DNA of 64,000 bases from a virus (IMGVR_UViG_3300029828_000006:1-64000), one strand, 5' to 3'; shown: positions 2,470 to 44,872, counted from the stretch's first letter. Notes: generated from the sequence alone by a model not told the origin. Program-made: numbers and translations.

Positions 2470-2859
2470 ATGGGCTTCCCTTCTCCTGCGGCGGATTATG
2501 TTGAAAGCCGAATTTCTCTTGATCAGCAGATAATTAGACATCCATCAGCAACCTACTTCATGCGGGCAGCTGATAGCCATCACCGTGAGGGAATATTGCA
2601 GGGTGCTTTGCTGGTGGTTGATTCTTCGCTTACTCCAGTTGATGGTTCGCTGCTTGTGTGCGCTATGGAGGGTGAATATCGCATAAAGAGATACAGGAAG
2701 TATCCGCGCCAGCACCTGGAGGATTTAAGCACCGGGAAGAAAGAGGCGTTACCAGTAGATGACGATGGTTACACGGGTAGTAATGCTGTTTTTGGTGTGA
2801 TCACTCATGTCATCAATGATGCCCGAAGTGGGGAATTTGATGATTGTCCGGTCATTTAA
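2470..2859 (+). CDS. humD: HumD, UmuD'-like translesion-synthesis accessory protein
   Basis: Translation aligns with UmuD core (GFPSPAADY, HPSATYF, VFGVITHVI); preceded by LexA box. Confidence 0.8.
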   Translation: MGFPSPAADYVESRISLDQQIIRHPSATYFMRAADSHHREGILQGALLVVDSSLTPVDGSLLVCAMEGEYRIKRYRKYPRQHLEDLSTGKKEALPVDDDGYTGSNAVFGVITHVINDARSGEFDDCPVI

Positions 2860-2931
2860 GCTGCAAAGTGCTGGTGCTTTATGCCTGTGAAGTTTATAAT
2901 TGTGTACACATAACGAGTACACGAGGTGTTT

Positions 2932-3153
2932 ATGCAATCCATTAACTTCCGTACCGCGCGCGGCAACCTTTCTGAAGTGCTCAACAATGTTGAAGCCGGG
3001 GAAGAGGTTGAAATCACCCGCAGAGGCCGTGAGTCAGCAGTAATTGTCAGCAAGGCTACTTTCGAAGCCTACAAAAAAGCGGCGCTGGATGCTGAATTTG
3101 CATCCCTGTTTGACACCCTGGACTCCACCAACAAGGAACTGGTTAACCGATAA
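2932..3153 (+). CDS. phd: Phd antitoxin
   Basis: 73 aa [34 protein letters not shown]... matches recalled P1 Phd; stop overlaps doc start (TAATG). Confidence 0.9.
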
Positions 3154-12467: not shown

Positions 12468-12860
12468 CTACCAGCGAGACAAACGAACAACATGTTTCAC
12501 TTTTGCGATCCACTGTCCGCGATAACTATTGATTACGGCCTGTGCCAGCTTCAAATTGGCTTCAAAATCAGCCTTACTACCATCAGACTCCACCAGCATT
12601 CCTCCATCTATTTCTGGTAAACATAGATAATCCTGCTCAACCTGCAGCGGCATTGATGGCTCTCTGAATGGGGTTACTTGCTCTGCTTTCCAGCGAAATC
12701 TAACCCTTATCCCCCTGGTGGTCATTACTAGATAGCCTGTTATAGTGCTTTTATGGCCCACATCAGTACGCGTGGCATTGCATGACACGATCTTACAGTT
12801 AGCGATAGACCACTCCATATTGGTGGCCTGTTGAGTGCTTAATTTGGTAGTCCCGTACAT
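12468..12860 (-). CDS. hypothetical protein (130 aa)
   Basis: Coupled to upstream gene; no domain recognised. Confidence 0.45.
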   Translation of the reverse strand: MYGTTKLSTQQATNMEWSIANCKIVSCNATRTDVGHKSTITGYLVMTTRGIRVRFRWKAEQVTPFREPSMPLQVEQDYLCLPEIDGGMLVESDGSKADFEANLKLAQAVINSYRGQWIAKVKHVVRLSRW

Positions 12861-13435
12861 CAGAAAGCCTCCCAGTCAGTCGCGATAATATCCACACCAG
12901 TTGCAAACCAGTCTGTCTGCGCCTGTAAATCACCATTCATCATTACCAGGCGAGGCATCACCATCACATCGCACCCTTCCACAATATCGAATGCCTCTTC
13001 CGGCAAGAATTCGAAGAGCTTTTCTTTGCTGCCAATGCTGCCACGGAACATCGATATATAGCTCCCTTTAGGCCATGATGTCCGCCGGGCATCAAGCCCT
13101 TTCATCATCCAGTAAAAAGCCGAGGAAAAAGGGATATTCTTTTTGCCAATGATTACATTATTCGCTTCTGTGTACTTCAGGAACTTAACTAACCTTACCA
13201 TTGACTCGGATAACGCAACGTATGGCTCATGATTGATTGCTGACACGCTTACACCGTGCAATCCAACGCTTACCACTGTCATATCGCCGCTCTGTGCGGT
13301 TTCGATATTGACGCCTTTGCGAACTAATGAGGCGTAAAGTTCCTCTCGCTTTTGGGTCCAGCGTTCCCGCTTCCCTATGAAGTCACTCAAAATGAGATCT
13401 TCTTCTGCATATGCGTTATCGTTCGCCATTAACAT
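12860..13435 (-). CDS. protein with C-terminal DUF2829-like domain (191 aa)
   Basis: AFYWMMKGLDARRTSW ... DIIATDWEAF matches DUF2829 pattern. Confidence 0.4.
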   Translation of the reverse strand: MLMANDNAYAEEDLILSDFIGKRERWTQKREELYASLVRKGVNIETAQSGDMTVVSVGLHGVSVSAINHEPYVALSESMVRLVKFLKYTEANNVIIGKKNIPFSSAFYWMMKGLDARRTSWPKGSYISMFRGSIGSKEKLFEFLPEEAFDIVEGCDVMVMPRLVMMNGDLQAQTDWFATGVDIIATDWEAF

Positions 13436-13657
13436 AACGTCTCCTTTTTACACGCGCGACCATCTCTCGGTTAAACCGATAGAGATGTCGAAACTTCGTA
13501 TTAATTAAGGGTTACAGCCTGAGCGGCTATATGATGAATTGAAAGGAGTTGTGGCGGTGGTGCCTCCACCTGCCAGGTCAGCCACGCCCGGCGACGACAC
13601 TTATCAGAACCTCAATGAATGAAAATGGCTTCGTCACGAGCGCATAGCCGCAATTAC

Positions 13658-13705
13658 CACAACGGAAACGGCGCTCGCGTTAATTAAACGCCTTTTCCTG
13701 TTGTG
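13658..13705. repeat. hairpin of the conserved-leader family
   Basis: CACAACGGAAA / TTTCCTGTTGTG stem preceded by GCATAGCCGCAATTACCACAACGG leader. Confidence 0.4.
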
Positions 13706-13889: not shown

Positions 13890-13965
13890 TGGTGGCCCCT
13901 ACCGGACTTGAACCGGTGACCGTGCGATTATGAGTCGCCAGCTCTAACCACTGAGCTAAGGGGCC
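13890..13965 (-). tRNA. tRNA-Ile2 (anticodon CAU, lysidine type)
   Basis: 76 nt with CCA; near-identical to recalled E. coli ileX; anticodon loop CTCATAA. Confidence 0.9.
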
Positions 13966-14088: not shown

Positions 14089-14249
14089 GAGTTCCTGAAC
14101 GCAGCTTTAATAATCGGCAATAGCAATACCACAGCTACTGAAACCAGTGCCCCATCAGCCAACACCGACATCACTTTGCTGGTGAAATCCACCAGCACGG
14201 ACAAAACGAGAAAACCAATGGCGCACGCAATACGCGCCTTGCCAATCAT
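14085..14249 (-). CDS. small membrane protein (54 aa), TciB-position
   Basis: Start overlaps tciA stop; two hydrophobic segments. Confidence 0.3.
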   Translation of the reverse strand: MIGKARIACAIGFLVLSVLVDFTSKVMSVLADGALVSVAVVLLLPIIKAAFRNS

Positions 14250-14683
14250 TACAGATAATCTTCCACACGAAGGCCCAAACGACGGCCTACTTCTTCCAGT
14301 ACTTTGTGTTCTGCTGGCTCGATTTCACCGTCCGCTTCTGCAATCGTCAGCATGTTAACGAATACTTCTTCCGCTTCTTTTGGATCATTTTTGATATCTT
14401 CAATTTCGCGAAGGATATTCATGCGACCAACACGGAAACCAGCTTCCAGTTGCTCAGTAAAACGGGTGATTGTTGCGGTAATTTCGTTGCCAAAATGACT
14501 TAAGCGAGGATTAGAGCGGACAAGCTGATCAAGTTTCGCTGTTTCTTCCTTTTCGATTTCACCATCTGCGGCAGACACCAACAAACAGCCACCGATAATG
14601 GCCTCCATCAGATCGCGATTCTCAACCCTTTTCAGCTCTACTTTTGCTGAAGCGACTTTCTTACCGAAAAATTTACCGAACAT
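14249..14683 (-). CDS. tciA: TerB-like protein (TciA-like)
   Basis: 144 aa with paired acidic helical repeats typical of the TerB fold. Confidence 0.6.
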   Translation of the reverse strand: MFGKFFGKKVASAKVELKRVENRDLMEAIIGGCLLVSAADGEIEKEETAKLDQLVRSNPRLSHFGNEITATITRFTEQLEAGFRVGRMNILREIEDIKNDPKEAEEVFVNMLTIAEADGEIEPAEHKVLEEVGRRLGLRVEDYL

Positions 14684-14950
14684 TGGTTATCCCTCAATAA
14701 ACATGACGTATTTATTAGGTTGCGGTGCCTGGTGCCTCCAGGTGACGTTAACCAGTTAACAATTAACGCCGGGATGTTTGACTTAACCACTAAGGAGGAT
14801 TGTTTTAACTGTTCCGCGTGCGCATAGCCGCATTCACCGCAATGGTAAGAGCACTTGGCTGGCTGGGCGGCGATGACGCCTGTACGCATTTGGTGATCCG
14901 GTTCTGCTTCCGGCATTCGCTTAATTAGCCAAATACTCTTAACGTTGCAC

Positions 14951-15037
14951 TGGCGGAGAGTAATGGAATCGAACCATCATCGCTTGCGCAATGGGACGGT
15001 TTTCAAGACCGTTTGAGCACCATGCTCCCTACTCTCC
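14951..15037 (-). tRNA. tRNA-Ser (anticodon UGA)
   Basis: 87 nt type II tRNA; acceptor GGAGAGT/ACTCTCC, anticodon loop CTTGAAA, long variable arm, CCA. Confidence 0.8.
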
Positions 15038-15139
15038 AGTGATTGTGATGGTCGGTGCTGAACTCCGACACAGGGTTGTAGCAAGCCCCGCAAAGCGCGC
15101 ACTACTGTAGTTGCGGCACATCAGCCTGTGCATTCACCA

Positions 15140-15229
15140 CAATGTTGAGAACACTGGTTGTCACGCTGCAACGCAACATTTATTCGTAGATTGGGATATG
15201 ACCCCGTTACGCCAGTGTTCTCAACGTTG
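15140..15229. repeat. long-stem hairpin (18-bp stem, 54-nt loop)
   Basis: CAATGTTGAGAACACTGG ... CCAGTGTTCTCAACGTTG, one wobble; preceded by conserved leader. Confidence 0.5.
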
Positions 15230-15370
15230 TAGTGCCGGTTACGGTTCCGGCCAGGCCTCTTCCTCAACGGGGTGTTCTCCATACGGACTACCGTTTATTG
15301 GTCGTTCCTGCGGTTTATGTTGTGAAGCCAGATGCTTATCTTCTGGTTGCTTCAAAGAGCTGCACTTCAT

Positions 15371-15438
15371 CACAACGGTAAGAGCACTCGATGCATTTAA
15401 GCCAAGCCCCATAAGGGAGAATGCCCTTACCTGTTGTG
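15371..15438. repeat. imperfect long-stem hairpin, same family
   Basis: CACAACGGTAAG ... CTTACCTGTTGTG; shares leader and GCTTGGC with next unit. Confidence 0.45.
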
Positions 15439-15566
15439 TTGTGATGACCGGTGCTGATCTCCGGCTTGCGGTTATTTCAGACTCTCACGGGCGTTTATTT
15501 GCCCCGCCGAACAGCTCTTTTCCGCAATAGCTGCAATGTCTTTCGCGCATCAGCCTGCGCATTCAT

Positions 15567-15653
15567 CACAACGGTAAGGGTACTTCGTAGGGATTCGAAC
15601 CCTCTGCCAAGCACGGCGATCTCCGACGTCGCAAAATACCCTTACCTGTTGTG
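15567..15653 (-). ncRNA. tRNA-like element lacking a D-arm
   Basis: Minus strand has canonical T-arm AGGG-TTCGAAT-CCCT and a 4-bp/9-nt hairpin inside a 16-bp stem; abuts tRNA-Thr. Confidence 0.4.
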
Positions 15654-15654
15654 T

Positions 15655-15730
15655 TGGTGCCGGTTAACGGACTCGAACCGCTGACATCCTGCTTACAAGG
15701 CAGGCGCTCTACCAACTGAGCTAAACCGGC
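15655..15730 (-). tRNA. tRNA-Thr (anticodon UGU)
   Basis: 76 nt; acceptor GCCGGTT/AACCGGC, anticodon loop CTTGTAA, CCA. Confidence 0.9.
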
Positions 15731-15734
15731 AATT

Positions 15735-15821
15735 TGGTGGGGAGTGATGGAGTCGAACCACCCGAGTCGCAATGACAGTAGATTTACAGTCTACCCCGCT
15801 ACCCCTACGGACTAACTCCCC
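15735..15821 (-). tRNA. tRNA-Tyr (anticodon GUA)
   Basis: 87 nt type II; anticodon arm AGACTGTAAATCT as in E. coli tRNA-Tyr; CCA. Confidence 0.85.
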
Positions 15822-15826
15822 TGAAT

Positions 15827-15903
15827 TGGCGATGGTGGGTGGATTCGAACCACCGACCGACAGCTTAGAAGGCTGCTGCTCTATCCTACTGAGCTACACC
15901 ACC
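15827..15903 (-). tRNA. tRNA-Arg (anticodon UCU)
   Basis: 77 nt; anticodon loop CTTCTAA; CCA. Confidence 0.85.
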
Positions 15904-16094: not shown

Positions 16095-16190
16095 GGAGGG
16101 ACGTAACAGGTAAGGGCGCTGACCAGAAAGACCTGACCCTTCTCATTCATCTGGTTAATCACACCAGCGCCCTTGCCTGTTATGCCTCCC
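16095..16190 (+). repeat. long hairpin (17-bp stem, GGGAGG/CCTCCC extension)
   Basis: AACAGGTAAGGGCGCTG ... CAGCGCCCTTGCCTGTT; shares ACAGGTAAGGG start with minus-strand units. Confidence 0.5.
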
Positions 16191-16408
16191 CGTTCCCTAA
16201 TACACAGACGGGGACACTCTGCGGTCGATTTTTTGACGGGGGACGACTCATACCCCGTGGCGTCAGGCTTCTTAGGCCGCTACCATCATCAGATCATCGT
16301 TTGCATTTACTTTAATGGTCGGGTTCTAAACCGCCGCAAAGTCGCTAACCATGACGAAAACCCTAAAAAAGCCCACCCGAAGATGGGCAAATACGCTACA
16401 TCTCACAC

Positions 16409-16485
16409 AAGAAAGAAGCCGACTGCCTGAGCTGGATTCACTTTCAAATGCCCGCTGAAAGGGATCACAAGTCGGCTTCTTTCTT
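16409..16485. repeat. perfect 16-bp stem hairpin with 45-nt loop
   Basis: AAGAAAGAAGCCGACT ... AGTCGGCTTCTTTCTT. Confidence 0.5.
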
Positions 16486-16702
16486 GATGCGGCACTCTCT
16501 CCGCCCGTCACCGCTCTGTCTCGGTTGTCGCGTTTGCCACGCCAGCCATAACGAGGTTTAAAGTCTTTTCACGTTCCCATCACTCGACTGCCGTCTGTGG
16601 CTGTTCGTTGCAGCGGGGGTGCCTCCCCCTGGGGATATCCCCGGCCTTACCCCATTCTTTCAAGACACAATGCAAGGCCACATCCGCATAGGTGCATTAC
16701 CG

Positions 16703-16767
16703 CAACATTAAGGAGACTCAGGGCAAAAGGTAACCGCCACAAAAATCCCTATGCCTCCTTAATGTTG
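16703..16767. repeat. perfect 13-bp stem hairpin with 39-nt loop
   Basis: CAACATTAAGGAG ... CTCCTTAATGTTG with leader-like GCATTACCGCAA before it. Confidence 0.5.
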
Positions 16768-41869: not shown

Positions 41870-44800
41870 TTAAATACTCCCCGCGTTATACCACGTTCCA
41901 TTAATGCAATACTGAATTGGCCTTGCCTGAGTTGTATCAATTAATTCATCACGGTTTCCGTTAACTGAACCAGTAACGACATAACCTGACCTGTCAGACC
42001 AGCCGGGACCATTCCATGTCTGAACAGATGACAGACCGCCAAGGCGAATACCTGTAATAAACCTTGAGTTACATTCTGCCTGCGTATATGCACCAACATC
42101 TCTCGCAGAGGGTTTGCGGGTTGTGGTGTAAAACTCTGACCAGTCAGCTTCAAAGCCATAACCATCACGCGCTGAACGATAAAAGATTCCGCCATTTCTG
42201 TAATTCACGCGGAACTGTACAGCAGGGCAGCTCCCCGTATTCATATTGAAGTGGAGGATTAATGTCGATGCGCCACCAATATTTGCGTTATAGACCCCGC
42301 TATTCCAGTTCCAGCCAACAGCTTTATCATTTCCGACAGTGCTTCCTGTTTGCCCTAAAGCAAATGCAGGCTGCTGGTTTTTCGTGTTGTAGTCTCGTCG
42401 CCAGCCAGGAGCATAAGCATCACCATGATTAATATAGGTGAATTGAGCGTTAGTAATTCCGCCGCCGCTGGACGTACTCGGCGTAGTAACGCGTATGGTC
42501 ATTGCGCCGCGAGTGCCAATAACTTCCACCACAGCACCTGCAAGACAAATATTTCCGCAACCTGTATCTGTAATGACCTTATTATTTGCATAAGCCCATG
42601 AGCCTTTGCACATCCAGTAAGGATGGTTAAATGCTCCCTGACTCTCCAGCCACGAAATAAATTGCGCGGTTGTCCAGACCTGACTATCGCCACCAATATT
42701 CAGCCATGAGCTATATGCGCGGCAGGCACCAATATTTTTGGTGAAGGTATCTTTTCCTGGAATATCTGCGCCGTTCTGGTTTTTCTGCAATGATCCAGCG
42801 GCTAATTCTACGGTTTGCTCAAGATTTAAATCTTCCGCCGTTAACTCAATATTTTTAGAACCATCAAACGAGACACCGTTAATAGTACATGCTGTCTGCA
42901 ATTTAGTCGCTGTAGCCGCATTACCAGAGGTATCCTGATCCCCTTTAGCATTGACGCCGGGAACGGAATCTTTTGACGTATAGATCTGCGCCCATTCGGA
43001 CCATGCCGCAGCAGTGCTATCTCTTTTGGATCGAATGAAAGCAGGTGCATGAGCGCCATTTGTGCCACTCCAGCCAATGAGCAACTCGCCTTCACCAGTG
43101 GATGCTGCTCCCTTCAGGTGAAGTACATTCCCGTAAGTCGTTGGATAACCATTGTTGTATGCCTCATACATCTGCAATCCAGTAGCAGCACCTTGCGTTG
43201 TACCGGTAAGCGCAGTAACGCGTCCTCTAGACGTAATTGTTGGTATCGAAATGTTCGTAGAACCATCGAACCTGACGCCATTAATGTTTATGGCTGTTTT
43301 TAATTTCGTAGCGGTGTCGGCGTTCCCTGTCAGCGCCCCGGTGATCCCGCCGTTGAAAGTCTGGCGCGCACTCCATGTGTTAGCCGTACTCAACAGGGGG
43401 ATCTTTTCACCGCTGGTACCGAGTTCTCTTAAACCAAGGTATTGGATAACGGCTAGTGTGCTTGTTTTAGCCAGAATATCGCGACCGACTGACGTTAAAT
43501 CAGTCTGCGCTACCGTATCCTTACCGGTGAAATAAGGCAGTTTGTTTGCACCAGTCGCAAGGGCAGCAAGAGCGGTTAAAGTTGCATCAAGTGGCTGTTT
43601 CCCTGCCAGCGCATTTGTCATGGTTGTCGCAAAGTTCGGGTCATTGCCCAATGCTGCTGCAAGCTCATTCAGGGTATCAAGAGCTTCAGGTGATGAGCCG
43701 ACCAATGCAGAGATAGCAGCCCGTACGTAAGCAGTCGTAGCGATCTGCGTATTGTTTGTGCCCTGTGCGGCGGTCGGCGCAGTAGGGACACCCGTTAATG
43801 CAGGGCTTGCCAAAGGCGCTTTGAGAGCCAGGGCATTGTTGATAGTTGTGCTGAAATTCGGGTCGTTATTGATCGCAGCCGCTATTTCTTTCAACGTATC
43901 CAATGTGCTAGGCGCACCGTTGATAAGTGTCGTTATAGCTGCCTTAACAAAGGCTGTATTTGCAATCTGCGTGCTATTTGTGCCTTGTGAGGCCGTAGGC
44001 GCTGTCGGTGTACCTGTAAACGCCGGGCTTGCCAAAGGAGCTTTAAGAGCCAGTGCGTTATTGATAGTTTCGCTGAACTTTGGGTCGTTATTGATGGCTG
44101 CTGCAATTTCTTTCAGCGTGTCCATCGTTCCCGGAGCACCATTGATAAGCGCATTTATAGCAGCATAGACAAAGGCCGCATTTGCGATCTGTGTGTTGTT
44201 TGTACCGGGTTCAGGTGTTGGCGAAGTCGGCGTACCTGACAGATGCGGACTATCGAGCGGAGCTTTTGTATCAACCAAATCATGGAGAGTTTTGACAGCC
44301 AGAGGTGTAGCCGCTTTTCTTTCTTCTGTACTGCTTATTTCATTAGAGAATTCGACACCAACAGCACGGTTAACCCGGTATTTAAGCACAATCATTTCTT
44401 TAGTCACAGCCGTTGCGCCGCTAGGCACGATAACTCGACATAATTCAATTTGATTCTGCCCAATAGTATTGTCCGTACGCGCGTAAATTCTTGCAGCACT
44501 GACAGAAGATGCGCTATCTACCTGTGTCGTTTTTACACCATGTTCAAAATTGGCTTCCAGCACAATAATGTTTGTAGCCCCAGCCTTTACCGAGACAGTC
44601 ACATCTTCTATTTGCTGAACGGATATCTGAACATTATTTACATCTACTGAAGCAGCCCCTTTACCTTCTGAGTTTTCAGAAGTTACACGGACGCTCAACC
44701 CTGTGCCGGGAACTGGTTCAAATCCACAGTAAAAGCCAGGCAAAACAATATTTTTAAGTTTTCTGTTAAGAGCCGAACTACTATAGAGTTCGAAATATTG

Positions 44801-44872
44801 AACATCAGCAAGCAACGGCTGTGAAACACCAGAGGATAGTGTCATTATGTTGTTCGTTTTATCAGCCCCCAT
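41870..44872 (-). CDS. S: tail fibre protein S (constant part + Sv)
   Basis: About 1000 aa; ATG at 44872 with GAGGG RBS (track start is upstream TTG); collar repeats; cix inside. Confidence 0.8.
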   Translation of the reverse strand: MGADKTNNIMTLSSGVSQPLLADVQYFELYSSSALNRKLKNIVLPGFYCGFEPVPGTGLSVRVTSENSEGKGAASVDVNNVQISVQQIEDVTVSVKAGATNIIVLEANFEHGVKTTQVDSASSVSAARIYARTDNTIGQNQIELCRVIVPSGATAVTKEMIVLKYRVNRAVGVEFSNEISSTEERKAATPLAVKTLHDLVDTKAPLDSPHLSGTPTSPTPEPGTNNTQIANAAFVYAAINALINGAPGTMDTLKEIAAAINNDPKFSETINNALALKAPLASPAFTGTPTAPTASQGTNSTQIANTAFVKAAITTLINGAPSTLDTLKEIAAAINNDPNFSTTINNALALKAPLASPALTGVPTAPTAAQGTNNTQIATTAYVRAAISALVGSSPEALDTLNELAAALGNDPNFATTMTNALAGKQPLDATLTALAALATGANKLPYFTGKDTVAQTDLTSVGRDILAKTSTLAVIQYLGLRELGTSGEKIPLLSTANTWSARQTFNGGITGALTGNADTATKLKTAININGVRFDGSTNISIPTITSRGRVTALTGTTQGAATGLQMYEAYNNGYPTTYGNVLHLKGAASTGEGELLIGWSGTNGAHAPAFIRSKRDSTAAAWSEWAQIYTSKDSVPGVNAKGDQDTSGNAATATKLQTACTINGVSFDGSKNIELTAEDLNLEQTVELAAGSLQKNQNGADIPGKDTFTKNIGACRAYSSWLNIGGDSQVWTTAQFISWLESQGAFNHPYWMCKGSWAYANNKVITDTGCGNICLAGAVVEVIGTRGAMTIRVTTPSTSSGGGITNAQFTYINHGDAYAPGWRRDYNTKNQQPAFALGQTGSTVGNDKAVGWNWNSGVYNANIGGASTLILHFNMNTGSCPAVQFRVNYRNGGIFYRSARDGYGFEADWSEFYTTTRKPSARDVGAYTQAECNSRFITGIRLGGLSSVQTWNGPGWSDRSGYVVTGSVNGNRDELIDTTQARPIQYCINGTWYNAGSI
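43424..43449. other. cix crossover site within S
   Basis: TTCTCTTAAACC-AA-GGTATTGGATAA, inverted relative to 39119-39144. Confidence 0.7.
43560..44240. repeat. three tandem 225-bp repeats encoding 75-aa collar repeats
   Basis: Recurring INNALALKAPLASPAFTGTPTAPT blocks in S constant region. Confidence 0.7.

What the first reader, a model, noticed from the sequence alone, without database searches (positions are those of the whole stretch)
14821..15653. tRNA array is interleaved with tRNA-sized hairpin repeats that share a conserved leader
Between the tRNAs lie repeated units that each start with a conserved leader (GCGCATCAGCCTGYGCATTCAYCACAAYGG) followed by a 12-18 bp stem enclosing a 40-55 nt loop. 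Stem sequences differ between copies but stay complementary, which argues for selection on structure. One unit (15567-15653) keeps a canonical T-arm and abuts tRNA-Thr but has no D-arm. They could be decayed tRNAs, processing stalks, or a new small-RNA family.
Basis: seen in the sequence. Interest (0 to 1): 0.8.

Follow-up and report, generated by a model that had tools for sequence, protein, structure and literature searches.

The report
Conserved phage hairpin-RNA cassettes among tRNAs
The repeats between the tRNA genes are real copies of a widespread, unannotated structured-RNA module of enterobacterial phages (phage lambda has one too), most likely a cutting site for the host enzyme RNase III that releases variable small RNAs.

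Summary
All tRNAs and the RNA sense of the hairpins lie on the minus strand, so the "conserved leader" is a 3' trailer. The window is a D6/P1-like phage-plasmid. About 3.4 kb of its ban-type operon holds five tRNAs and six clear units plus one degenerate unit. Each unit has a base helix CACAAC/GUUGUG, a covarying inner helix (about 19 bp in all), an unrelated insert, then single-stranded GGUGAAU and a 5-bp hairpin. Compensatory changes and G-U pairs support an RNA structure on the tRNA strand. No unit scores as a tRNA or reaches threshold for any Rfam family. The same module occurs in lambda just after the tR' terminator. It also occurs in HK620, in early-left (PL) leaders of Stx2 phages, in N4-like and 158-kb Klebsiella phages, in 1286 of 5426 E. 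coli genomes and in many other Enterobacterales, and is never annotated there. Best explanation, inferred and not shown: an RNase III processing hairpin that cuts tRNA/mRNA precursors and releases the insert. The conserved arms also let cassettes be swapped by recombination. put, nut/boxA, tRNA and coding readings were tested and failed. Unit B's insert may still derive from a tRNA.

The parts
16703..16767 (-). Degenerate unit Z: hairpin CAACAUUAAGGAG...CUCCUUAAUGUUG followed by GCGGUAAUGC
   Evidence: Covariance-model hit 16775-16674, 14.6 bits, E 0.016. Fold z -3.3.
16365..16487 (-). 17-bp hairpin (16487-16407) plus intrinsic terminator (16391-16365). Inferred to correspond to the region P1 annotates as 'dicF-like'.
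   Evidence: Sequence, terminator scan, fold, P1 annotation. No DicF hit in Rfam even at E<=10. The BLAST alignment to P1 ends at 16391, so the correspondence is by offset only.
16095..16191 (-). Unit A: 27-bp hairpin with core AACAGGCAAGGGCGCUG / CAGCGCCCUUACCUGUU and no standard trailer
   Evidence: Inverted repeat I2. Fold z -5.2. Model hit 16184-16102, 28.5 bits.
15655..15903 (-). tRNA-Arg(UCU) 15827-15903, tRNA-Tyr(GUA) 15735-15821, tRNA-Thr(UGU) 15655-15730
   Evidence: ARAGORN, Rfam tRNA.
15545..15653 (-). Unit B: hairpin 15653-15567 whose insert has a T-arm-like hairpin, then AUGAAU, then a 5-bp hairpin GCGCAGGCUGAUGCGC (15560-15545). It starts 2 nt after the CCA end of tRNA-Thr.
   Evidence: Model hit 92.0 bits. 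Fold z -5.2. Sequence.
15448..15464 (-). Small hairpin CCGGAGAUCAGCACCGG that precedes unit C. Its loop is complementary to the GGCUGA loop of the trailer hairpin.
   Evidence: Sequence. The same spacer and hairpin occur in Stx2a_WGPS2 and a similar hairpin in HK620.
15371..15438 (-). Unit C hairpin. An alternative register extends it to 15446-15366. Variant trailer AUGAAGUGCAGC.
   Evidence: Model hit 15444-15340, 48.3 bits. Fold z -4.1.
15116..15234 (-). Unit D: 23-bp hairpin 15234-15135, then GAAU, then hairpin GCACAGGCUGAUGUGC (15131-15116)
   Evidence: Inverted repeat I3, 91% complementary. Model hit 94.9 bits. Fold z -5.5.
14951..15037 (-). tRNA-Ser(UGA)
   Evidence: ARAGORN. Best Rfam match is tRNA-Sec at 45.1 bits, just under its cutoff of 47. 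D6 annotates it as tRNA-Ser.
14814..14949 (-). Unit E: hairpin 14949-14838 rich in G-U pairs, starting 2 nt after the CCA end of tRNA-Ser. Its insert is a segment conserved in lambda and rV5-like phages. The trailer is GUGAAUGCGGCUAUGCGCACGCGG.
   Evidence: Model hit 57.4 bits. Insert homology.
14721..14841 (-). STnc100-like leader of tciA. UGCGGUG at the end of unit E can pair instead with CACCGCA (14727-14721).
   Evidence: Rfam RF02076, 40.1 bits against a cutoff of 47, model positions 31-147 of 206. The same arrangement gives sub-threshold hits in L077 (36.4 bits) and L066 (40.8 bits), with UGUGGUG/CACCACA in L077.
14249..14683 (-). tciA (TerB family), the first protein gene after the RNA array
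   Evidence: Pfam TerB, E 2e-14. P1 and D6 annotation.
13890..13965 (-). tRNA with CAU anticodon (P1 annotates its counterpart as tRNA-Ile2)
   Evidence: ARAGORN. P1 annotation.
13624..13705 (-). Unit F: short hairpin 13705-13658 and trailer GUAAUUGCGGCUAUGCGCUCGUG, upstream of the next ORF
   Evidence: Model hit 13711-13624, 43.8 bits, E 5e-10. The fold is not distinctive (z -1.1).
12860..13435 (-). 191-aa ORF with a Tad2-like domain, downstream of unit F in the same orientation
   Evidence: Pfam PF11195, E 1.1e-9.

Best explanation
The units are copies of one structured-RNA module. It is read on the minus strand as part of a long, mostly non-coding polycistronic transcript that also carries the tRNAs.

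Each module has these parts in order:
- a 5' neighbour, which is a tRNA 3' end, a small hairpin or an intrinsic terminator;
- the base helix CACAAC/GUUGUG;
- an inner helix whose sequence changes but stays paired, giving about two helical turns in all;
- an insert of arbitrary sequence;
- single-stranded GGUGAAU;
- a 5-bp hairpin.

Most likely mechanism (inferred, not shown): host RNase III cuts the roughly 19-27 bp helix. The cut separates tRNA precursors from the neighbouring RNA and from the tciA/Tad2-like mRNA. It also releases the enclosed insert as a small RNA with a double-stranded foot, and it defines the 5' end of the downstream message. The single-stranded GGUGAAU may be a second cut site, for example for RNase E.

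The conserved arms and trailers also serve as homology for recombination. This explains why related phage-plasmids carry different numbers and orders of units and tRNAs.
For: Shown:
- The helix is under selection on the tRNA strand. 94% of cells are paired, 9 of 18 pairs have double changes, 0 of 500 shuffles reach the observed score, and slid controls pair at 29-58%. A U-G wobble is present in 16 of 28 sequences.
- A covariance model scores the minus strand at 28-95 bits and the mirror strand at 10-30 bits.
- The closing helix has a median of 19 bp in 96 distinct units. This fits RNase III's known need for about two helical turns of dsRNA (established knowledge).
- Units always sit in untranslated operon leaders or next to tRNAs, co-oriented with them, and begin 1-2 nt after the tRNA CCA end.
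- Lambda carries a unit at 44787-44868, immediately after tR'. With its outer extension it forms the longest helix in that leader; otherwise only the tR' terminator hairpin, the sdi-type hairpin before S, and one alternative pairing of the unit's own 3' arm appear.
- Hybrid units show recombination within the arms. P1 has the hairpin of B joined to the trailer of C. At least five different inserts occupy the position right after tRNA-Thr in related plasmids.
- One insert type is conserved in lambda, in this window and in an rV5-like phage, although the enclosing stems differ.
Against: - No cleavage data were available. I could not read the 1988 paper, so whether its mapped sites lie in the lambda unit rests on memory and inference.
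- RNase III needs no particular sequence. The strong conservation of CACAAC/GUUGUG, GGUGAAU and the GGCUGA loop across unrelated phages is therefore not explained by it, and points to an additional partner or to recent horizontal spread.
- Part of that conservation is an ascertainment effect, because my collection scans required those motifs.
- Units E and F do not fold better than shuffles.
- The model was built partly from P1-type units, so scores for D and B are circular.
Confidence: 0.5

Rival explanations
1. The insert is the functional part. The module is a holder that expresses, stabilises and releases many different small RNAs from early or late phage transcripts. These could be regulators or tRNA-like decoys aimed at host enzymes or defence nucleases. 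The conserved stem and trailer are only the processing and stability scaffold. This overlaps with the best explanation but places the selected function in the payload.
For: - There are 48 insert classes that share no 11-mer inside near-identical arms.
- T-arm-like hairpins occur in 16 of 96 units against 0.32 expected, in about five unrelated classes.
- A class with two T-arms is conserved from Citrobacter to Edwardsiella prophages.
- The E-type insert is 85-98% conserved in lambda, D6-like and rV5-like phages with different enclosing stems.
- The operon also carries tRNAs, TerB and a Tad2-like gene.
Against: - No target, binding partner or transcript is known.
- Most inserts show no conservation beyond close relatives.
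- No insert scores as tRNA, tmRNA or YrlA.
- Some inserts are very short, for example in unit F.
Confidence: 0.2
2. The module acts on transcription. It would modify RNA polymerase or block Rho, so that a long untranslated leader with promoter-proximal terminators is read through. This would resemble HK022 put, lambda nut or rRNA boxA elements.
For: - Position: about 200 nt downstream of a putative PL in an Stx2 phage that has no annotated N gene, in late leaders, and in about 2.4 kb of untranslated RNA before tciA.
- The common 3' arm UGCUCUUAC is identical to the lambda nutR boxA core and is followed by a hairpin (from the sequence plus my own knowledge of nut sites).
Against: - The boxA-like sequence lies inside the helix and is not kept in divergent members, for example GUGCAAUCCGCAGUUGUG and AGCCGUUUCAGUUGUG.
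- HK022, which uses put, has no match.
- In late operons the unit lies after tR', not before it.
- Units are repeated many times within one operon.
Confidence: 0.1
3. The units are selfish or neutral DNA. They would be a palindromic repeat that spreads among phage genomes (MITE- or REP-like), or a recombination linker between modules, with no RNA function.
For: - Arms and trailers are 90-100% identical in phages that otherwise share almost no DNA, including lambda, P1, N4-like and 158-kb Klebsiella phages.
- Arrays are combinatorial and contain hybrid units.
- The whole module is nearly symmetrical on the two strands (mirror hits).
Against: - Pairing is kept by compensatory changes and by G-U pairs that fit one strand only.
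- Orientation relative to tRNAs and downstream genes is constant in P1-like arrays.
- Insert diversity is not what copies of a mobile element show.
- Every unit whose context I examined (about 25 phage and prophage loci) lies in a phage-type leader or next to tRNAs; the contexts of most chromosomal copies were not examined.
Confidence: 0.1
4. The units are decayed tRNA genes.
For: - Unit B has a T-arm followed directly by the 3' strand of a 7-bp helix, as in a tRNA.
- The L098 insert can be drawn as a near-cloverleaf (my reading of the sequence).
- The small hairpin before unit D resembles the 3' end of tRNA-Thr..UAACCGGCA.
Against: - ARAGORN and Rfam call none of them, even at E<=10.
- Most inserts have no tRNA feature.
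- The conserved parts of the family, the arms and the trailer, are not tRNA sequences.
Confidence: 0.05

Closest known systems
RNase III processing sites in the phage lambda late-operon leader (Daniels, Subbarao, Blattner, Lozeron 1988, Virology 167:568)
   Same: The lambda member of this family lies in that leader, right after tR', and with its outer extension forms the longest helix there. Both are untranslated leaders of a long operon.
   Different: I could not confirm that the mapped sites coincide with the unit, because only the title was accessible. That paper concerns one site in one phage. It does not describe a family with tandem copies, variable inserts and a conserved trailer.
Other RNase III hairpins in phage and rRNA precursors: T7 early-region sites, the lambda N-leader and sib sites, and rRNA processing stalks (from my own knowledge)
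   Same: All are helices of about two turns placed between functional RNAs in a polycistronic transcript. The enclosed or flanking RNA is released by a double-strand cut.
   Different: Those sites share no primary sequence with this module. They do not have the CACAAC/GUUGUG base, the GGUGAAU tail or the GGCUGA-loop hairpin.
STnc100 (Rfam RF02076) and PasD prophage small RNAs
   Same: The trailer of the last unit before an ORF, together with the leader that follows, aligns with STnc100 positions 31-147. This includes UGGUGAAU, a 5-bp hairpin and the closing helix. Both are elements of prophage late or accessory regions.
   Different: All three matches fall below Rfam's cutoff (36-41 bits against 47). 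The match does not cover the long hairpin, and internal units do not match at all.
Small stable RNAs in the phage T4 tRNA cluster (species 1 and 2) and the repeats after E. coli tyrT (RtT RNA) (from my own knowledge)
   Same: They are non-tRNA structured RNAs or repeats interleaved with tRNA genes and made from the same precursor. The tyrT repeats also carry a copy of the tRNA 3' end, as does the hairpin before unit D.
   Different: No sequence or Rfam similarity was found; RtT did not match. Different processing enzymes have been proposed for them.
HK022 put RNA
   Same: It is a cis-acting structured RNA in the leaders of phage early operons.
   Different: put is about 70 nt with two stem-loops and binds RNA polymerase. 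The model finds nothing in HK022.

Membership tests
tRNA (Rfam RF00005 / ARAGORN) | Cloverleaf with acceptor, D, anticodon and T arms that scores above the family threshold | tested here: not met
   ARAGORN calls only the five true tRNAs. Rfam gives no tRNA-clan hit on any unit at E<=10 in the window, nor on the T-arm-bearing inserts of other loci.
STnc100 (RF02076) | Score at or above the gathering cutoff of 47 bits over the 206-position model | tested here: not met
   40.1 bits at 14721-14841, covering model positions 31-147 only. L077 gives 36.4 and L066 gives 40.8 bits. This is a partial relative, limited to the trailer and the leader.
HK022 put antiterminator RNA | Homology to putL/putR, a two-stem RNA of about 70 nt just downstream of PL and PR | tested here: not met
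   The model R1 has no hit in HK022 18000-40751, which holds the immunity and late regions. The architecture also differs.
nut / rRNA-type boxA-boxB site | A conserved single-stranded boxA (GCUCUUUA-like) next to a boxB hairpin | tested here: not met
   GCUCUUAC is present in common members, but it is base-paired and is replaced by unrelated covarying sequence in divergent members.
RNase III processing hairpin | A double-stranded helix of about 20 bp or more in a transcribed region | tested here: met
   The closing helix has a median of 19 bp, typically 17-24 and up to 30, in 96 units. Units in the window have 18-27 bp.
RNase III processing hairpin | Staggered cleavage in the helix that depends on rnc, in vivo or in vitro | not testable with these tools
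   The only support is the title of the 1988 lambda paper. The paper itself is not held.
Bacterial Y RNA (YrlA, RF02553) | A long Ro-binding stem plus a tRNA-like domain, matching the Rfam model | tested here: not met
   The only YrlA hit is 15.4 bits (E 9.2) and overlaps tRNA-Arg, not a unit. There is no hit on T-arm inserts.
MITE / REP-like mobile palindrome | Terminal inverted repeats around a conserved core, dispersed copies in either orientation, and target-site duplications | tested here: inconclusive
   Inverted arms are present, but the cores are unrelated. Orientation is fixed relative to tRNAs and pairing fits one strand. Empty sites and duplications were not examined.
Protein-coding genes upl and plp (P1 annotation of the same DNA, opposite strand) | An open reading frame conserved between P1 and this window, with a recognisable protein family | tested here: not met
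   Neither has a Pfam match. The window has a 174-bp difference inside the plp region and different ORFs. plp overlaps tRNA-Thr.

The most novel reading that the evidence does not exclude
Enterobacterial phages of many unrelated types share an exchangeable RNA cassette system. A conserved holder, made of the CACAAC/GUUGUG helix and its trailer, would be processed by host RNases. It would deliver a rapidly swapped repertoire of small RNAs, some of them tRNA-like, from the first transcripts made after induction or infection. These RNAs would act as regulators or as decoys against host defences that target tRNAs or RNA. They would sit alongside the phage tRNAs, TerB and the Tad2-like gene in the same operon.
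Probability: 0.15. Interest if true: 0.85.

Novelty: new variant of a known kind. Interest (0 to 1): 0.6.

Why it matters
Lambda and P1 are among the best-studied genomes, yet this module is annotated in neither. In P1 the DNA is labelled as two protein genes (upl, plp) on the wrong strand. In other phages it is labelled as tiny hypothetical ORFs or left blank.

A defined family gives three things:
- It corrects those annotations.
- It explains why the tRNA region of P1-like phage-plasmids is so variable.
- It provides a concrete, testable handle on how phages process tRNA-containing leader transcripts. The family has a covariance model, at least 96 distinct members and a clear architecture.

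If the variable inserts prove functional, the module would be a general route by which phages acquire and exchange small RNAs.

Tried and rejected
- **Ordinary tRNA or known Rfam family.** No hit at gathering thresholds in the window, in 16 IMG/VR loci or in lambda. At E<=10 the units gave only microRNA-precursor matches typical of any long hairpin, and their flanks only other weak sub-threshold hits.
- **DicF.** P1 labels a nearby region 'dicF-like'. Rfam DicF does not match. The region is a separate hairpin plus terminator upstream of unit A.
- **boxA/nut.** This looked attractive because UGCUCUUAC equals the lambda nutR boxA core. It was rejected when divergent members showed the sequence is not conserved.
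- **put.** HK022 has no member.
- **Integron attC-like site.** The borders (CCACAAC / GTTGTGG) resemble RYYYAAC / GTTRRRY but do not fit them. The elements occur in virulent phages and pair with G-U on one strand. I rejected this on sequence grounds and did not search for an integrase.
- **Small ORF in the trailer (GUG GUG AAU GCG...).** The changes seen (GCGCA/UGCGC to GCACA/UGUGC) are hairpin-compensating, and one of them is non-synonymous.
- **Promoter inside the unit.** No sigma-70-like site lies on the minus strand between 13400 and 17000.
- **C1 operator of P1.** It is not found in the window, so control by C1 is assumed only by analogy with P1.
- **Literature.** No held paper prints the conserved sequences. 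The P1 genome paper, the 1988 lambda paper and the RNase III review could not be read.
- **Gapped scan for units enclosing a full tRNA.** It returned only 3 loci. ARAGORN found no tRNA inside any of the units it was run against.

Full report
**What the window holds**

The window is a D6/P1-like phage-plasmid of E. coli.
- The 1.8 kb around the finding is 100% identical to several E. coli plasmids. It is about 92% identical, over 87% of its length, to phage D6, and about 91% over 86% to one P1-type record.
- A C4 antisense RNA and its targets confirm P1-type immunity.
- All five tRNAs lie on the minus strand: Met/Ile2(CAU) 13890-13965, Ser 14951-15037, Thr 15655-15730, Tyr 15735-15821 and Arg 15827-15903.
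- In P1 the matching DNA belongs to the ban operon. Its order is promoter with C1 operator, a 'dicF-like region', tRNAs, tciABC, tRNA-Ile, then ban. The stretch between tRNA-Thr and tciA is annotated there as two genes, upl and plp, on the opposite strand.
- In the window no credible ORF lies between the pmgS-like gene (ends 17139) and tciA (starts 14683).

**Check of the observation**

Weaker copies lie at 14829 and 15362.
- Long inverted repeats flank each copy. Four of the five hairpins folded first fold far better than shuffles (z -4.1 to -5.5); unit E does not.
- Read on the tRNA strand, the conserved block comes after each hairpin. It consists of GUUGUG (the end of the stem), GGUGAAU or AUGAAU, and a 5-bp hairpin GCRCAGGCUGAUGYGC.
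- Unit E pairs largely through G-U, which is only possible on the minus strand.

**Structure is selected, on that strand**

- I collected units from other sequences and aligned 28 of them with the inserts trimmed. The 18-bp closing helix is paired in 94% of cells. Nine pairs show changes on both sides, and no shuffle out of 500 reaches the observed scores. Sliding the partner by 1-3 columns drops pairing to 29-58%.
- One pair is U-G in 16 of 28 sequences.
- A covariance model (R1) finds D (94.9 bits), B (92.0), E (57.4), C (48.3), a new unit F at 13711-13624 (43.8) and A (28.5) in the window. A degenerate copy at 16775-16674 scores 14.6 bits. Mirror hits on the plus strand score only 10-30 bits.
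- Some model sequences are P1-type units, so the top two scores are partly circular. F, A and the strand asymmetry are not.

**The family is large and not specific to P1**

- A motif scan of IMG/VR returned many non-P1 contigs with the same arms and trailer but unrelated inserts. Chance matches of the motif carried no unit, which is a useful control.
- BLAST found the module in 186 phage records, including lambda itself, HK620, HK630, HK633, CUS-3, Stx2 phages and many Klebsiella, Salmonella, Erwinia and Cronobacter phages.
- It is in 1286 of 5426 complete E. coli genomes, and no feature is annotated under the match in any of the 40 records listed.
- A 27-mer of the trailer occurs in 35 loci of other species, from Kosakonia, Rahnella, Pantoea and Serratia to Edwardsiella and Aeromonas. 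In all but two of the 35 (L134 and L147, which hold only short remnants) the model aligns a full-length unit.
- It also occurs in a virulent N4-like phage, about 800 nt upstream of two tRNAs. It occurs in a 158-kb Klebsiella phage inside 2.9 kb with no annotated gene.
- Rfam has no family for it. There was no hit at gathering thresholds in 16 loci, and no hit at E<=1 in the lambda leader.
- No paper in the held library prints the conserved sequences.

**Where it sits**

- In lambda the unit is at 44787-44868. This is a few bases after the tR' terminator and before gene S.
- Several prophages show the same layout of terminator followed by unit.
- In HK620 it lies between PR'/qut and the annotated late terminator.
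- In an Stx2 phage and at least seven IMG/VR contigs it lies after the cI gene and its terminator, and before the early-left genes. In the Stx2 phage that is about 200 nt downstream of a putative PL. Two or three units often occur in tandem there.
- In some siphoviruses one unit and a tRNA sit together inside the tail-gene cluster. In L111 and in ClaudiaMuster (L124) the unit points opposite to the flanking tail genes.
- In P1-like elements the unit always begins 1-2 nt after a tRNA CCA end or after a small hairpin, and it is co-oriented with the tRNAs.

**Architecture**

Across divergent members the inner helix sequence changes completely while pairing is kept. The base CACAAC/GUUGUG stays.

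The 5' neighbour is a tRNA, an intrinsic terminator, or a 4-6-bp hairpin with a purine-rich loop whose stem also varies.

Two trailer types recur:
- Type 1 is the GGCUGA-loop hairpin.
- Type 2 (GCGGCUMAGCGCNCGCGG) is found on the last unit before an ORF. Together with the leader that follows, it aligns below threshold with Rfam STnc100 (36-41 bits against a cutoff of 47).

In the STnc100 alignment, the end of the unit's 3' arm pairs with a downstream CACCRCA. One compensatory difference is seen between the window and L077. The 3' arm can therefore choose between two partners. Lambda shows the same feature (I3).

**Inserts**

- Ninety-six distinct units fall into 48 classes that share no 11-mer. 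The enclosed part has a median of 46 nt.
- T-arm-like hairpins (a stem of at least 4 bp around UUCRANN) occur in 16 units against 0.32 expected. They fall in about five unrelated classes.
- None scores as tRNA, tmRNA or YrlA.
- One class with two such hairpins is conserved in prophages of several genera.
- The insert of unit E is 85-98% conserved in lambda, where it follows the unit. It is equally conserved in an rV5-like virulent phage, where it follows an unannotated tRNA-Ser inside a different stem.

**Array dynamics**

- P1-like elements carry many combinations of tRNAs (Asn or Arg, with or without Tyr, Thr, with or without Ser) and one to four units.
- P1 lacks window 15388-15562. It has a hybrid unit with the hairpin of B and the trailer of C, and the junction lies in the shared CCCUUACCGUUGUGAUGAA.
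- At least five different inserts occupy the slot right after tRNA-Thr.
- The spacer after unit B is the same as in the PL leader of the Stx2 phage.
- These facts show recombination within the conserved parts.

**Mechanism**

Shown: a selected RNA helix of about two turns, repeated in untranslated leaders and next to tRNAs in many phages.

Inferred: RNase III cuts it.

Grounds for the inference:
- the length of the helix;
- its position between RNAs that must be separated;
- the lambda member. With its outer extension it forms the longest helix in a leader for which RNase III processing sites were reported in 1988. I could confirm only the title of that paper.

RNase III does not explain the conserved primary sequence of the base, tail and loop. 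Either another factor is involved or the module has spread recently. My scans also favoured conserved trailers.

Rivals tested:
- tRNA: not met.
- put: not met.
- boxA/nut: not met.
- Coding on the other strand: not supported.
- Mobile palindrome: not excluded, but disfavoured by strand-specific pairing and fixed orientation.
- Payload-centred function: open, and compatible with the processing model.

**Verdict**

The finding is real and larger than reported, with the strand corrected. The module belongs to a known kind, a processing hairpin in a phage leader or tRNA precursor. As a family it appears undescribed, with a conserved holder, variable inserts, tandem arrays and a presence in lambda and P1. 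Its function remains unproven.

Noticed in passing
window 12860-13435 (-): The 191-aa ORF just downstream of unit F has a Tad2-like (Thoeris anti-defense 2) domain (Pfam E 1.1e-9). With TerB (tciA) and five tRNAs, the operon looks like an accessory or counter-defence locus.
   Followed up: partly
L001 (P1) 2567-3136; equivalent to window about 15111-15684 (+): The P1 genes upl and plp are annotated on the strand opposite the tRNAs. They overlap the hairpin units, and plp overlaps tRNA-Thr. Neither has a Pfam match, and the frames are not kept in the window. They are probably not genes.
   Followed up: partly
window 16365-16487 (-): A 17-bp hairpin followed by a strong intrinsic terminator (GCCCAUCUUCGGGUGGGC + U6) lies upstream of unit A. 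It is the counterpart of P1's 'dicF-like region' and looks like a promoter-proximal small RNA or terminator, but it does not match Rfam DicF.
   Followed up: partly
window 15545-15560 and 15448-15464 (-); L123 2580-2598; L125 3122-3140: The loop GGCUGAU of the trailer hairpin is complementary to the loop AGAUCAGCA of the small hairpin before the next unit. This could be a loop-loop contact, or it could simply reflect the near-palindromic build of the module.
   Followed up: no
L166 (rV5-like phage Gotham) about 1395-1486: An unannotated tRNA-Ser(UGA), almost the same as the one in the window, lies between the annotated tRNA-Tyr and tRNA-Lys. It is followed by the E-type conserved segment inside a different stem.
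   Followed up: partly
L164 (N4-like phage nithesis) 1500-2640; L165 (Klebsiella phage Madison) 734-3641: These regions hold a unit but are annotated with 33-46-aa ORFs on the opposite strand (nithesis) or left empty (Madison). They may be non-coding RNA regions.
   Followed up: no
L131, L163, L097, L125, L127 (inserts of units): One insert class of about 95 nt has two T-arm-like hairpins and a variable middle hairpin. It is conserved from E. coli Stx2 phage to Citrobacter and Edwardsiella prophages and matches no Rfam family.
   Followed up: partly
window, whole: The P1 C1 operator consensus ATTGCTCTAATAAATTT is absent even with 3 mismatches. The repressor specificity of this D6-like element presumably differs from that of P1.
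   Followed up: no
window 14951-15037 (-): The tRNA-Ser(UGA) scores best against the Rfam tRNA-Sec model (45.1 bits, just under its cutoff of 47). The D6 record notes that tRNAscan-SE did not call its amino acid. It is an atypical long-arm tRNA.
   Followed up: no
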